Shown here: positions 28,627 through 30,866 of the stretch, piece by piece
How positions within the stretch are numbered: position 1 is the stretch's first letter
Layout of the letters: every line of letters starts with the position of its first letter
NCBI RefSeq assembly: GCF_009931435.1
Contig: NZ_CP043414.1
DNA from: Escherichia coli
GTDB taxonomy: Bacteria > Pseudomonadota > Gammaproteobacteria > Enterobacterales > Enterobacteriaceae
DNA length: 64,000 nt
Strand: one strand, 5' to 3'
Made by a program: the position numbers and the translations under genes
The notes under the pieces: model-generated
What the model was told of the DNA's origin: nothing
The model's input: only the letters and a program-made list of their open reading frames with translations
Database searches by the model: none

Positions 28627-29169
28627 AAGCTGGGTAAATGCAGATAATCGTTTTCTGGCTTCGCGATTTGTCGCCTGCATCACCATCCACGGACTGAACG
28701 CCCACGGCGTGGCATCAATACCGCGTAAAACCGCTGCTAAATCACACCATTGATAATCCATCACTTCATCATCGTTGATCTGTAACGCACTGGTCGTGCG
28801 TGCGGCAAATACCGGACATACTTCATTTTCTACAATGCCATTCGGATCGGTGGCGCGGTAGCGAAAGTCAGGATAGACCGGTTCTGGTGCTGTTATTTCC
28901 ACACCCAGTTCAAAGCGGCAACGGCGGATCACCGCGTATTCGTTGCTTTCGCCCAGTTGTGGGTGCCCACAAACCGAGTTAGTCCACACGCCCGGCCATG
29001 CTTTTTTGCTAAGGGCGCGGCGGGTAACTAATAATTGCCCTTTGGCATTAAACAGCCAGCAGGAGAACGCGAGATGTAAGAGAGTGTCTGCCGTGTGTGC
29101 GGCATACTTTTCCAGCGTACCCGTGGGAACTCCCTGTGCATTCAATAAAATGACGTGTTCCGTTTGCAT
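28621..29169 (-). CDS. idi: Isopentenyl-diphosphate delta-isomerase (Nudix type I)
   Basis: Track ORF 182 aa, recognised Idi sequence. Confidence 0.93.
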
Positions 29170-29417
29170 AATTTCTCACATGTAATTCTAATCACTCATC
29201 ATTATAGATAATTGAAGAGTGAAATGATTAACCAAGTGAGCGTTTATCGACAACCGCCCGTTTTGAGCGGATGTCGACAGGTAAAACCATTTAAAAAAGC
29301 AGCATCATATATTTGAAGCGACTTTCAATGGCCATTGCAACACAGTCAGAAATGACAGGAATAGAGAGAGTAAAAAGCAACAACAGACTGAATATAGCGC
29401 GCATTAAAAGATTCATA

Positions 29418-30866
29418 TTATTCTCCATGCTCATTTTTCTTCAGCTTGCGCATCAGAAGCCACATACGTACTGTCCTGACTTTTAAATCTTTATCAGAGA
29501 CGGATTCCTTCACCAGATCAGCATGATGCTGATAGCCATTAAAGAAGACGTTCAGCACAACGGCGCTAAGGGTTGCGAGCATAATGCCGCTATGCAGCAA
29601 CGGTTGCAGTACGGCCGGTAACTTAGAAAAGAAATCGTGTGAGAGCGTCGGAGTCATGCCAACGCCGAGACTGATCGCCACAATATAGAGGTTGTAACGG
29701 TTAGTGGTGTAGTTACAGCGCGACAGAATTCGAATCCCCGTCGCCAGTACCATGCCGAACATCACCAGCCCTGCGCCGCCAAGCACAAATTGCGGAATCG
29801 AGGCTACCAGCACCGCCATTTTGGGCACCATGCCAAACATGATTAATATGATCCCCGAAGAAATACACACCCAGCGACTATGAACGCGAGTCACGCTAAC
29901 CAGGCCAACGTTTTGAGAAAATGACGTGTGGGGGAAGCTGTTAAACGTTCCGCCTATCATTGTCCCTACACCATCGACACGCAGCCCGCGAATAATATCG
30001 TGCGAAGAGAGTTTACGACCGACTATTTCACCCAGTGCCAGGAACATCCCCATCGACTCGATAAACACGATGATTAACACAGCGGTCATGGTTAGAATAG
30101 AAACGGGGTCAAATACCGGCATACCAAACGACATTGGGGTGACAATCGCAAACCACGAAGCATCATGTAGCCCGGACAAATTGACTTCATTCATCATCCA
30201 CGAAAGTAAAAAGCCAAATACAATCCCCAGTAATACGGCGACGTTGGACATAAATCCTTTCGCATAGCGAGTAATGAGCAAGATAAAAATTAAGACGGCA
30301 AAGGAGATACCTAAATAAACGGGATTACCATATTGCGGATTCCCTTTACCTCCAGCGGCCCAGTCAATACCGACCTGAATAATGCTAAGCCCGATAGAAG
30401 TAATAACCACACCGGTAACCAGTGGCGGGAATAAAGGCATTAAGCGACCGATAAGTGGTGCTAATAATGTGGTGATAAATCCCGCGGCGATAGTGGCACC
30501 AAATATCCCCAGCAGGCCGATATCCGGGTTCATGCCAATGGCTATCATTGGTGTTACAGCAGCAAAGGTTACCGACATAATCACCGGCAGACGGATCCCC
30601 ATAAAGCGGCCGATACCGATACATTGTAATAATGTGACGATCCCGCAGCAAAAGAGATCCGAGCTAATGAGCATCGCAATAGCTTCTTTTGAGAGGCCCA
30701 GTCGGTCACCAATCATAAGAGGAACAGCGACTGCACCTGCGTACATTACAAGGACGTGTTGCAGACCGAGTATGATCAGCTTTCCTGGTGATAATATGCG
30801 GTCAACCTCATCAGTTGGGCGGTCTTGCCCTGAAGATGAGGGAAGTTGGGAATCTATGGCGCTCAT
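29418..30866 (-). CDS. uacT: NCS2-family uric acid/xanthine permease
   Basis: Track ORF 29418..30995 (TTG artefact start); recognised protein begins MSAIDSQLPSSSGQDRPTDE at internal ATG; 482 aa, many TM helices. Confidence 0.88.
   Translation of the reverse strand: MSAIDSQLPSSSGQDRPTDEVDRILSPGKLIILGLQHVLVMYAGAVAVPLMIGDRLGLSKEAIAMLISSDLFCCGIVTLLQCIGIGRFMGIRLPVIMSVTFAAVTPMIAIGMNPDIGLLGIFGATIAAGFITTLLAPLIGRLMPLFPPLVTGVVITSIGLSIIQVGIDWAAGGKGNPQYGNPVYLGISFAVLIFILLITRYAKGFMSNVAVLLGIVFGFLLSWMMNEVNLSGLHDASWFAIVTPMSFGMPVFDPVSILTMTAVLIIVFIESMGMFLALGEIVGRKLSSHDIIRGLRVDGVGTMIGGTFNSFPHTSFSQNVGLVSVTRVHSRWVCISSGIILIMFGMVPKMAVLVASIPQFVLGGAGLVMFGMVLATGIRILSRCNYTTNRYNLYIVAISLGVGMTPTLSHDFFSKLPAVLQPLLHSGIMLATLSAVVLNVFFNGYQHHADLVKESVSDKDLKVRTVRMWLLMRKLKKNEHGE

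What the first reader, a model, noticed from the sequence alone, without database searches (positions are those of the whole stretch)
29290..29417. Small hydrophobic ORF translationally coupled to the uacT stop codon
On the minus strand an ATG lies 1-2 nt after the uacT stop, with a GGAGAA SD embedded in the last uacT codons. It opens a ~36-41 codon ORF encoding a hydrophobic, Cys/Leu-rich peptide (my reading: MNLLMALYSVCCCFLLSLFLSFLTVLQWPLKVASNI). My base count in this stretch disagrees by 1 nt with the ORF-track end coordinate of uacT, so the frame and exact sequence need verification. It could be an unannotated small membrane protein co-translated with the urate transporter.
Basis: seen in the sequence. 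Interest (0 to 1): 0.35.

Follow-up and report, generated by a model that had tools for sequence, protein, structure and literature searches.

The report
Known small membrane protein gene yqfG

Summary
The ORF exists on the minus strand at 29416..29291: 41 codons plus TAA. Its ATG lies exactly 1 nt after the uacT stop (TAA-T-ATG), and a GGAG sits 6 nt upstream. It then drops one base and follows the +1 frame. The true product is MNLLMRAIFSLLLLFTLSIPVISDCVAMAIESRFKYMMLLF, which is Leu-rich and has one Cys.

The ORF is not unannotated. It is yqfG (b4684 in K-12), named "protein YqfG" in RefSeq and present in about 99% of complete E. coli genomes. Published work describes YqfG as a small membrane protein of unknown function and shows that tagged YqfG is cleaved by the S2P protease RseP, in vivo and in vitro.

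Comparative analysis here supports coding:
- Pairwise dN/dS is 0.03-0.47 in 43 of 44 computable pairs.
- Variable sites by codon position are 23/10/35.
- P20, R33 and F34 are invariant.

Divergent 38-42-residue relatives occur in Citrobacter, Kluyvera, Enterobacter and Klebsiella. Each follows a xanthine/uracil-family permease gene directly, with a stop-start distance of -1 to +4 nt except in Kluyvera. This supports the coupling idea and suggests, without proving, a role tied to the transporter.

Verdict: already known; low interest.

The parts
29291..29416 (-). yqfG coding sequence: 41 codons plus TAA. Product: MNLLMRAIFSLLLLFTLSIPVISDCVAMAIESRFKYMMLLF.
   Evidence: Translation. Annotated as yqfG/'protein YqfG' in strains identical over the region and in K-12. 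The 41-residue product is identical to the one in the annotated strain L001 and 40/41 identical to K-12 YqfG, with L3 in place of F3. dN/dS 0.03-0.47 in 43 of 44 computable pairs. Variable sites by codon position 23/10/35.
29423..29426 (-). Shine-Dalgarno-like GGAG, 6 nt upstream of the yqfG ATG, inside the last uacT codons (..H-G-E).
   Evidence: Sequence. Purine-rich or G-rich equivalents sit at the same place in Citrobacter, Klebsiella, Enterobacter and unnamed contigs. It is weaker (GGTG) in E. albertii and a cryptic Escherichia clade.
29418..29420 (-). uacT stop codon TAA. One nucleotide (29417) separates it from the yqfG ATG.
   Evidence: The 1-nt spacing is kept in Escherichia, Citrobacter and contig L085 while the stop codon varies among TAA, TGA and TAG.
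29418..30866 (-). uacT (ygfU), urate:H+ symporter gene, 482 codons. It is the upstream cistron of yqfG.
   Evidence: Annotation in matching E. coli records. Xan_ur_permease Pfam family in orthologous loci.
29245..29279 (-). Stable hairpin starting 12 nt after the yqfG stop. It may be the 3'-end structure of the uacT-yqfG transcript. No U tract follows it.
   Evidence: RNA fold -22.9 kcal/mol, z = -4.3. It is conserved in Escherichia and Citrobacter, with changes on both sides in 5 of 10 pairs. The terminator scan did not call it.
29224..29316 (+). Antisense small ORF that corresponds to yqfH. It is 30 codons here and 23 in K-12, and overlaps the yqfG 3' end by 26 nt.
   Evidence: PMC6001520 Table 1 lists YqfH among the small proteins detected in that study. 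Its length is variable and it is missing in some Escherichia.

Best explanation
The feature is the known gene yqfG (b4684). It encodes a 41-residue single-helix inner-membrane peptide and forms the distal cistron of a uacT-yqfG unit.

Proposed mechanism, with the status of each step:
1. Ribosomes that terminate at the uacT UAA, or ribosomes recruited by the GGAG in the last uacT codons, initiate at the AUG 1 nt downstream. YqfG is therefore made together with the urate permease. This is inferred from the sequence and from conservation of the junction.
2. The peptide inserts with its N terminus in the cytoplasm. R6 precedes a hydrophobic helix of residues about 7-19. A conserved Pro20 hinge follows, then a C-terminal segment outside the membrane that carries the invariant R33-F34 of the S-R-F motif. 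This is predicted. The published topology, type II, is also a prediction.
3. The site-2 protease RseP cleaves the peptide within the membrane and so turns it over. This was shown in the literature with N-terminally tagged YqfG, in vivo and with purified RseP.
4. Its physiological role is not known. The small gene stays attached to the 3' end of a xanthine/uracil-family permease gene across Escherichia, Citrobacter, Kluyvera, Enterobacter and Klebsiella while the downstream genes change. The most likely role is therefore a small partner of the UacT-type permease, acting in assembly, stability or regulation. This is inference; I rate it about 0.35-0.4.
For: Identity:
- The window region is 100% identical to RefSeq strains that annotate uacT, yqfG ('protein YqfG', WP_001050745.1) and idi.
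- K-12 annotates yqfG b4684 at 3032817..3032942, 1 nt after uacT.
- The window product is 40/41 identical to K-12 YqfG.
- The ORF is present at 80% coverage or more in 5359 of 5426 complete E. coli genomes. It is named YqfG in 39 of 40 evenly sampled records.

Coding:
- Intact 41-codon orthologues occur in E. albertii, a cryptic Escherichia clade and three or more Citrobacter lineages.
- NG86 dN/dS is 0.03-0.47 in 43 of 44 computable pairs. The exception is 1.01 between two nearly identical Citrobacter sequences.
- Variable sites by codon position are 23/10/35, and the other two frames carry 1-5 stops.
- A profile search finds 38-42-residue relatives in Enterobacter and Klebsiella. P20, R33 and F34 are invariant; R6 and L14 are nearly so.

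Coupling and linkage:
- In every context where the upstream gene could be read, the ORF follows a Xan_ur_permease gene.
- Stop-start distances are -1 (TAATG overlap), +1, +3 and +4. They are +2 in L098, whose 45-residue upstream fragment gave no UacT match, and +66 only in Kluyvera.
- The permease partner has diverged to about 42% identity in Klebsiella, Enterobacter and contig L097.
- Downstream genes differ: idi, AraC/rha genes, a molybdopterin oxidoreductase, or xdhC.

Membrane peptide and RseP:
- Hydropathy peaks over residues 7-22.
- AF2 predicts one helix, residues 3-40, with pLDDT 90, 91, 84, 70 and 52 in successive blocks of 10 residues.
- PMC4597795 calls YqfG a small membrane protein of unknown function with a TMHMM-predicted N-in/C-out orientation. 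It shows HA-MBP-YqfG to be RseP-cleaved and cites a supplementary figure for its integral membrane association.
- PMC10470546 lists YqfG as a Class I RseP substrate, positive in all four assays, including chromosomal RseP and purified enzyme.
Against: - I could not retrieve direct evidence that the untagged, chromosomally encoded protein is made. Hemm et al. 2008, which I recall as the SPA-tag discovery paper, and the ribosome-profiling supplements were not available.
- Coupling is inferred from spacing only. In Kluyvera the ORF sits 66 nt after uacT with its own SD, so strict coupling is not universal.
- The SD is weakened (GGTG) in E. albertii.
- The gene has decayed or is absent after uacT homologues in Cedecea, Serratia oryzae, Pluralibacter, Hafnia and Edwardsiella. 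Truncated or frameshifted alleles occur in a minority of E. coli. It is therefore dispensable in some lineages.
- Overexpressing ygfU is reported to raise urate degradation in E. coli Nissle (PMC9067508). That paper does not mention yqfG, and the host presumably still carries a chromosomal copy.
- There is no physical or genetic evidence for a UacT-YqfG interaction.
Confidence: 0.9

Rival explanations
1. YqfG is a pre-peptide rather than a resident membrane protein. Residues 1-23 would act as a Sec-type signal peptide, signal peptidase I would cut after Val-Ile-Ser23, and an 18-residue peptide (DCVAMAIESRFKYMMLLF) would be released into the periplasm. RseP would then only clear the leftover signal peptide.
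For: - The layout is signal-peptide-like: basic R6, a 13-residue hydrophobic core, Pro20, then small or neutral residues at -3 and -1.
- The candidate sites are V-I-S|D in E. coli, A-I-S|E in Citrobacter and V-Q-A|G in Kluyvera.
- The most conserved residues (S-R-F) lie in the putative mature part.
- The authors chose YqfG as an RseP test substrate because it resembles signal peptides (PMC4597795).
Against: - The -3/-1 pattern does not hold across the family. Klebsiella and Enterobacter have P-x-V-Q-Q-[AG], which puts Gln at -3.
- AF2 models one continuous helix through the site.
- No processing by signal peptidase is described in the passages I read. HA-MBP-YqfG ran at the expected full-length size without RseP, although a 2-kDa loss would be hard to see (PMC4597795).
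- No signal-peptide predictor was available here.
Confidence: 0.1
2. Only the act of translating the ORF matters. It would act in cis on uacT mRNA stability, on termination at the downstream hairpin, or on read-through into idi. The peptide itself would have no function.
For: - The ORF sits tightly against uacT.
- A conserved hairpin follows directly, and the reported idi promoter -35 overlaps its 3' arm (PMC3946193).
- The ORF has been lost in some lineages.
Against: - Purifying selection acts on the amino-acid sequence: dN/dS 0.03-0.47 in 43 of 44 computable pairs.
- P20, R33 and F34 are invariant and the length stays at 38-42 residues down to about 21-30% identity.
- The ORF is retained where the downstream gene is not idi.
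Confidence: 0.03
3. YqfG is a type I toxin-like hydrophobic peptide, and the transcript of the antisense yqfH region restrains its expression.
For: - It is a small hydrophobic single-helix peptide.
- An antisense ORF and transcript (yqfH) overlaps its 3' end.
- RseP also degrades the Hok toxins (PMC10470546).
Against: - In the passages I read, tagged YqfG was expressed without toxicity being reported, unlike HokA in the same study (PMC10470546).
- The gene occurs once per genome in a fixed operon position after a permease, which is not the pattern of type I toxin loci.
- The antisense ORF is poorly conserved and absent in some Escherichia.
- There is no Rfam antitoxin RNA match. The only hit scores 19 bits against a gathering score of 100.
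Confidence: 0.03
4. It is a chance open frame in T-rich DNA that is not translated.
For: 15% of shuffles of the 120-nt body remain open. There is no Pfam or NCBIfam model.
Against: - Conservation, the codon-position pattern and dN/dS argue against chance.
- The gene is curated in K-12.
- Published experiments treat YqfG as an expressed small membrane protein (PMC4597795, citing Hemm et al. 2008).
Confidence: 0.01

Closest known systems
YqfG of E. coli K-12 (b4684, YP_002791254.1; RefSeq WP_001050745.1 'protein YqfG')
   Same: It is the same gene. It occupies the same position, 1 nt after uacT and upstream of idi, has the same 41-codon length, and is 40/41 residues identical to K-12. Over the region searched the DNA is 100% identical to many RefSeq strains that annotate yqfG.
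   Different: The window allele has Leu3 where K-12 has Phe3, plus silent differences.
Small single-pass membrane proteins that are RseP (S2P) substrates: YkgR, YshB, Blr, HokB and HokE, and remnant signal peptides
   Same: Similar size, a single hydrophobic helix, a predicted type II orientation, a very short region outside the membrane, and helix-destabilising residues (Ser, Thr, Pro) in or next to the helix. YqfG itself is a Class I substrate in PMC10470546.
   Different: This group is a substrate class, not a homologous family. RseP cleavage of the window allele (L3) was not tested, and the physiological meaning of the cleavage is unknown (PMC4597795).
Small accessory subunits or regulators encoded with, or acting on, membrane transport complexes: KdpF (kdpFABC), CydX (cydABX), MgtR, AcrZ, MgtS (from my own knowledge of these systems)
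   Same: A peptide under 50 residues with one helix. Here it is encoded in the same transcription unit, directly attached to the gene of a large polytopic membrane protein, and that linkage is conserved across genera.
   Different: There is no evidence that YqfG binds or affects UacT, and no sequence similarity to any of these peptides. To my knowledge no small subunit is known for a transporter of the NAT/NCS2 family.
Sec signal peptides cleaved by signal peptidase I
   Same: Basic N terminus, a short hydrophobic core, Pro at -4 and small residues at -3 and -1 in the Escherichia, Citrobacter and Kluyvera sequences.
   Different: The cleavage motif is not conserved in the Klebsiella and Enterobacter members. 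The putative mature part would be only 16-18 residues. Cleavage has not been tested.

Membership tests
YqfG (E. coli b4684) | Sequence identity to the curated K-12 protein | tested here: met
   tblastn gives 41/41 residues aligned, 97.6% identity to K-12 (L002) and 100% to RefSeq strain L001.
YqfG (E. coli b4684) | Genomic position: same strand as uacT, start 1 nt after the uacT stop, upstream of idi and lysS | tested here: met
   Window ORF list and sequence against the K-12 and RefSeq annotation tables.
YqfG (E. coli b4684) | Protein actually synthesised from the chromosome | not testable with these tools
   The literature cites Hemm et al. 2008 for the expression of such small membrane proteins (PMC4597795). 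I could not retrieve that paper or the ribosome-profiling supplements. Comparative evidence for coding is strong.
RseP (S2P) substrates of the small-membrane-protein type | Single transmembrane helix, type II (N-in/C-out) orientation, very small periplasmic part | tested here: inconclusive
   One hydrophobic segment at residues 7-22. AF2 gives a single helix. R6 lies on the N-terminal side. The orientation is only predicted, here and in PMC4597795 (TMHMM).
RseP (S2P) substrates of the small-membrane-protein type | RseP-dependent cleavage | not testable with these tools
   Shown for tagged K-12 YqfG in vivo, with plasmid and chromosomal RseP, and in vitro (PMC4597795; PMC10470546 Table 1). The window allele differs only at residue 3.
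Bacterial lipoproteins | Lipobox L-[AS]-[GA]-C at the end of the signal peptide, with an invariant Cys | tested here: not met
   The sequence before Cys25 is V-I-S-D, and Asp at -1 is not a lipobox residue. Cys25 is replaced by Gly, Ser, Ala or Val outside Escherichia.
Sec signal peptide with a signal peptidase I site | n-h-c regions with small uncharged residues at -3 and -1, conserved in the family | tested here: inconclusive
   Met in Escherichia (V-I-S|D), Citrobacter (A-I-S|E) and Kluyvera (V-Q-A|G). Not met in Klebsiella and Enterobacter, where Gln is at -3. No predictor or experiment was available.
Type I toxin peptides (Hok, Ldr, Ibs, TisB and similar) | Toxicity on expression and a dedicated, conserved antisense or overlapping RNA antitoxin | tested here: not met
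   There is no Rfam antitoxin family. The best hit scores 19 bits against a gathering score of 100. The antisense yqfH ORF is variable or absent among Escherichia. Toxicity was not tested here and is not reported for tagged YqfG in the passages I read (PMC10470546).
Small subunits or regulators of transporters (KdpF, CydX, AcrZ type) | Conserved co-location with the partner gene | tested here: met
   In every context where the upstream gene could be read, the ORF lies directly 3' of a Xan_ur_permease gene. This holds across at least five genera and down to about 42% permease identity, with varying downstream genes.
Small subunits or regulators of transporters (KdpF, CydX, AcrZ type) | Physical association with the partner and an effect on it | not testable with these tools
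   No interaction data were found. The structure tool returns no inter-chain contacts.

The most novel reading that the evidence does not exclude
YqfG may be the founding member of an unrecognised, Enterobacteriaceae-wide family of 38-42-residue peptides with the signature R-x13-P-x4-[small]-x3-[small]-x2-[S/G]-R-F-x-[F/Y/W]-x-L-x-F. Members would act as dedicated small partners of UacT-type (NAT/NCS2) urate permeases. They would be made in step with the transporter through stop-start coupling, and RseP would remove them when in excess. That would be the first accessory subunit described for this transporter family, and it could matter for engineered uricolytic probiotics, which so far overexpress ygfU without any mention of yqfG.
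Probability: 0.3. Interest if true: 0.45.

Novelty: already known. Interest (0 to 1): 0.12.

Why it matters
As a finding it matters little. The gene is curated in E. coli K-12, named in RefSeq, and used as a model substrate in published RseP work.

Three things add value:
- YqfG-like ORFs remain attached to the 3' end of urate/xanthine-family permease genes well beyond Escherichia. This gives a concrete, testable hypothesis for a protein whose function is still unknown.

UacT lies next to the anaerobic uric-acid degradation cluster, which is now of medical interest (PMC12507026, PMC9067508). A modulator of urate uptake would therefore have some practical relevance.

Tried and rejected
Literature that could not be retrieved:
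- Hemm et al. 2008, Hemm et al. 2010, the EcoSal Plus 2020 small-proteome review, the published version of Weaver et al. 2019, and Papakostas & Frillingos 2012.
- No supplementary tables are held for the ribosome-profiling or mass-spectrometry papers.
- Direct evidence for endogenous YqfG expression therefore rests on citations in PMC4597795 and on my own recollection.

Database searches that found nothing:
- Pfam and NCBIfam have no model for YqfG or the antisense ORF.
- The PDB has no relative.
- Rfam has no credible family in 28900-29700.

Readings rejected or weakened:
- Lipoprotein: there is no lipobox and the Cys is not conserved.
- Longer N-terminal start (in-frame ATGs at 29434 and 29428, which some gene callers use, for example P0014 and P0041): these have no SD, and the family alignment starts at the proximal ATG.
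- Canonical intrinsic terminator after yqfG: the hairpin is real and covaries but has no U tract, and the scan did not call it.
- Secreted peptide: weakened by the wider family alignment.

Limits of what was done:
Taxonomic distribution, for example in Salmonella, is therefore incompletely sampled, and absences should be read with care.
- AF2 on the family alignment gives only a single helix.
- I did not attempt a UacT-YqfG fusion model, because the tool reports no contacts or PAE.

Full report
**1. What is in the sequence**

The minus strand of the window reads ...GAG CAT GGA GAA TAA T ATG AAT CTT TTA ATG CGC GCT....

- uacT ends with ...NEHGE and TAA at 29420-29418.
- One base (T, 29417) follows, then an ATG at 29416-29414.
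- That ATG opens a frame of 41 codons ending in TAA at 29293-29291.
- GGAG lies at 29426-29423, 6 nt from the ATG.
- The product is MNLLMRAIFSLLLLFTLSIPVISDCVAMAIESRFKYMMLLF.

The same tail occurs in rare natural frameshift alleles (P0064, P0086). The real peptide is Leu-rich and has a single Cys.

An open frame of this length is not remarkable in itself, because 15% of shuffles stay open.

**2. It is an annotated gene**

- The 411-nt region is 100% identical to RefSeq E. coli chromosomes that annotate uacT, yqfG ('protein YqfG', WP_001050745.1), a short antisense hypothetical protein, and idi.
- In K-12 MG1655 the same ORF is yqfG, b4684, at 3032817..3032942, 1 nt after uacT. yqfH (b4753) lies on the opposite strand.
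- The window allele differs from K-12 by L3 in place of F3.
- The ORF is present at 80% coverage or more and 95% identity or more in 5359 of 5426 complete E. coli genomes. It carries the YqfG name in 39 of 40 evenly sampled records.

**3. What is published**

- PMC4597795 (eLife 2015) calls YqfG a small membrane protein of unknown function with a TMHMM-predicted type II orientation. The authors chose it because it resembles signal peptides.
- That paper shows that HA-MBP-YqfG is cleaved by RseP but not by the E23Q mutant. It cites a supplementary figure for the fusion's integral membrane association. Pro substitutions at Ile8-Phe15 alter cleavage by RseP loop mutants.
- PMC10470546 (mBio 2023) lists YqfG as a Class I RseP substrate. 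It is positive with the HA-MBP and 3xFLAG tags, with chromosomal RseP, and with purified RseP.
- Both papers state that the physiological meaning is unknown.
- From my own recollection, the gene was discovered and SPA-tagged by Hemm et al. 2008. I could not retrieve that paper or the ribosome-profiling tables.

**4.

A first protein search found relatives only in Escherichia and Shigella. DNA-level inspection of the region after uacT homologues then found more:

- intact 41-codon orthologues in E. albertii and Citrobacter sp. R56;
- a 38-residue version in Kluyvera;
- a 10-codon remnant (MNFLALLQSY*) in Cedecea;
- nothing recognisable after the homologues in Pluralibacter, Hafnia, Edwardsiella, Morganella and Aeromonas. 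In Serratia oryzae there is only a possible decayed N-terminal remnant.

A profile search added C. amalonaticus, C. enshiensis and others.

For ten 41-codon sequences:
- NG86 dN/dS is 0.03-0.47 in 43 of 44 computable pairs. For example, E. coli against E. albertii gives dN 0.010 and dS 0.32. The exception is 1.01 between two nearly identical Citrobacter sequences.
- Variable sites by codon position are 23/10/35.
- The two other frames carry 1-5 stops in every sequence.

The ORF is therefore under purifying selection as a protein.

**5. A wider family, always behind a permease**

An HMM of 17 sequences searched against 1.84 billion representatives gave 31 hits at E of 0.001 or better. These include 38-42-residue proteins whose cluster members come from the Enterobacter cloacae complex and from Klebsiella oxytoca, K. 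michiganensis and K. pasteurii. All are labelled hypothetical.

In a 27-sequence alignment:
- P20, R33 and F34 are invariant.
- R6 and L14 are nearly invariant.
- Position 32 is Ser or Gly.
- Positions 25 and 29 are mostly small residues.
- Position 36 is aromatic.
- Most sequences end in ..LLF, ..LFF or ..FYF.

In every context where the upstream gene could be read, the ORF sits directly 3' of a Xan_ur_permease gene. The stop-start distances are:
- +1 in Escherichia, Citrobacter and contig L085;
- -1 (TAATG overlap) in Enterobacter and Klebsiella;
- +3 in L095 and L096;
- +4 in L097;
- +2 in L098, whose 45-residue upstream fragment gave no UacT match;
- +66 only in Kluyvera, which has its own AGGA and an intervening hairpin.

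Within the +1 group the stop codon itself varies among TAA, TGA and TAG, so it is the spacing that is conserved, not the sequence. The partner permease has diverged to about 42% identity to UacT in Klebsiella, Enterobacter and L097. The downstream genes differ: idi, AraC/rha genes, a molybdopterin oxidoreductase, or xdhC/yqeC. This pattern is what one expects of a small protein whose function is tied to the permease. It is not proof.

**6. Shape of the peptide**

- Hydropathy is highest over residues 7-22.
- AF2 on the family alignment gives one helix, residues 3-40, with confidence falling toward the C terminus (pLDDT 90, 91, 84, 70 and 52 in successive blocks of 10 residues).
- The P-[VA]-[IV]-S|[DE] stretch looks like a signal peptidase I site in Escherichia and Citrobacter, as does V-Q-A|G in Kluyvera. 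Klebsiella and Enterobacter have Gln at -3, so I rate the pre-peptide reading low.
- There is no lipobox, and Cys25 is specific to Escherichia.
- There is no Pfam or NCBIfam model, no PDB relative and no credible Rfam match.

**7. Surroundings**

- A stable hairpin (29279-29245, -22.9 kcal/mol, z = -4.3) follows the yqfG stop. It is kept in Escherichia and Citrobacter, with changes on both sides in 5 of 10 pairs. No U tract follows it, and the terminator scan did not call it.
- The published constitutive idi promoter -35 (TTGTCG; PMC3946193) lies in its 3' arm.
- The antisense ORF yqfH is listed among the detected small proteins in PMC6001520. It is 23 residues in K-12 and 30 in this window, because of a 1-nt T-run difference. 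It is 17 residues in a cryptic Escherichia clade and absent in another E. coli, so it is poorly conserved.

**8. Verdict**

- The reading of a coupled small membrane protein is reasonable and is strengthened by the comparative data.
- The ORF is the known gene yqfG, so novelty is 'already known' and interest is low.
- The most novel reading still open is that YqfG-family peptides are dedicated partners of UacT-type permeases. I put this at about 0.3.

Noticed in passing
window 29224-29316 (+): The antisense small ORF that corresponds to yqfH is 30 codons here (MINQVSVYRQPPVLSGCRQVKPFKKAASYI) and 23 in K-12. A 1-nt difference in a T run shifts its C terminus. It is 17 codons in a cryptic Escherichia clade and absent in E. 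coli L080, so it shows little sign of protein-level constraint even though it is listed as detected in PMC6001520.
   Followed up: yes
window 29245-29279 (-): A stable hairpin lies directly after the yqfG stop (-22.9 kcal/mol, z = -4.3). It is conserved in Escherichia and Citrobacter with compensatory changes in 5 of 10 pairs. A T-rich run precedes it and no U tract follows, so it is not a canonical intrinsic terminator on either strand. The reported idi promoter -35 (TTGTCG, 29253-29248) lies in its 3' arm.
   Followed up: partly
L008 4136-4168 (Cedecea); L004 4443-4547 (Serratia oryzae): These look like decayed remnants of the small ORF after uacT. Cedecea keeps ATG 1 nt after the stop but has only MNFLALLQSY*. 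Serratia oryzae has an ATG that overlaps the stop and an MIRFWFAAALL... start that then diverges. This suggests the gene was lost in some lineages.
   Followed up: partly
L089 1051-2499 (cryptic Escherichia clade, GCA_004745145.1): uacT matches in two different frames that join near codon 107-111, and no gene is called there. This points to a frameshift, either a pseudogene or an assembly error. The yqfG immediately after it is intact.
   Followed up: partly
L092, L093, L094, L097 (Enterobacter, Klebsiella and an unnamed contig): The permease in front of the YqfG-like ORF is only about 42% identical to E. coli UacT. It is still followed by the small ORF, with a TAATG stop-start overlap or a 4-nt gap. 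A molybdopterin oxidoreductase gene follows 17-27 nt later, which suggests a longer operon than in E. coli.
   Followed up: partly
Many other truncated or 'partial' YqfG entries exist, each represented by very few sequences.
   Followed up: yes
window 29428-29434 (-): Two in-frame ATGs upstream of the annotated start (M-S-M-E-N-N-M) overlap the end of uacT. Some automatic gene callers use one of them or an even earlier start (for example P0014 and P0041). They have no SD, and the N-terminal extension is not conserved in the family.
   Followed up: partly
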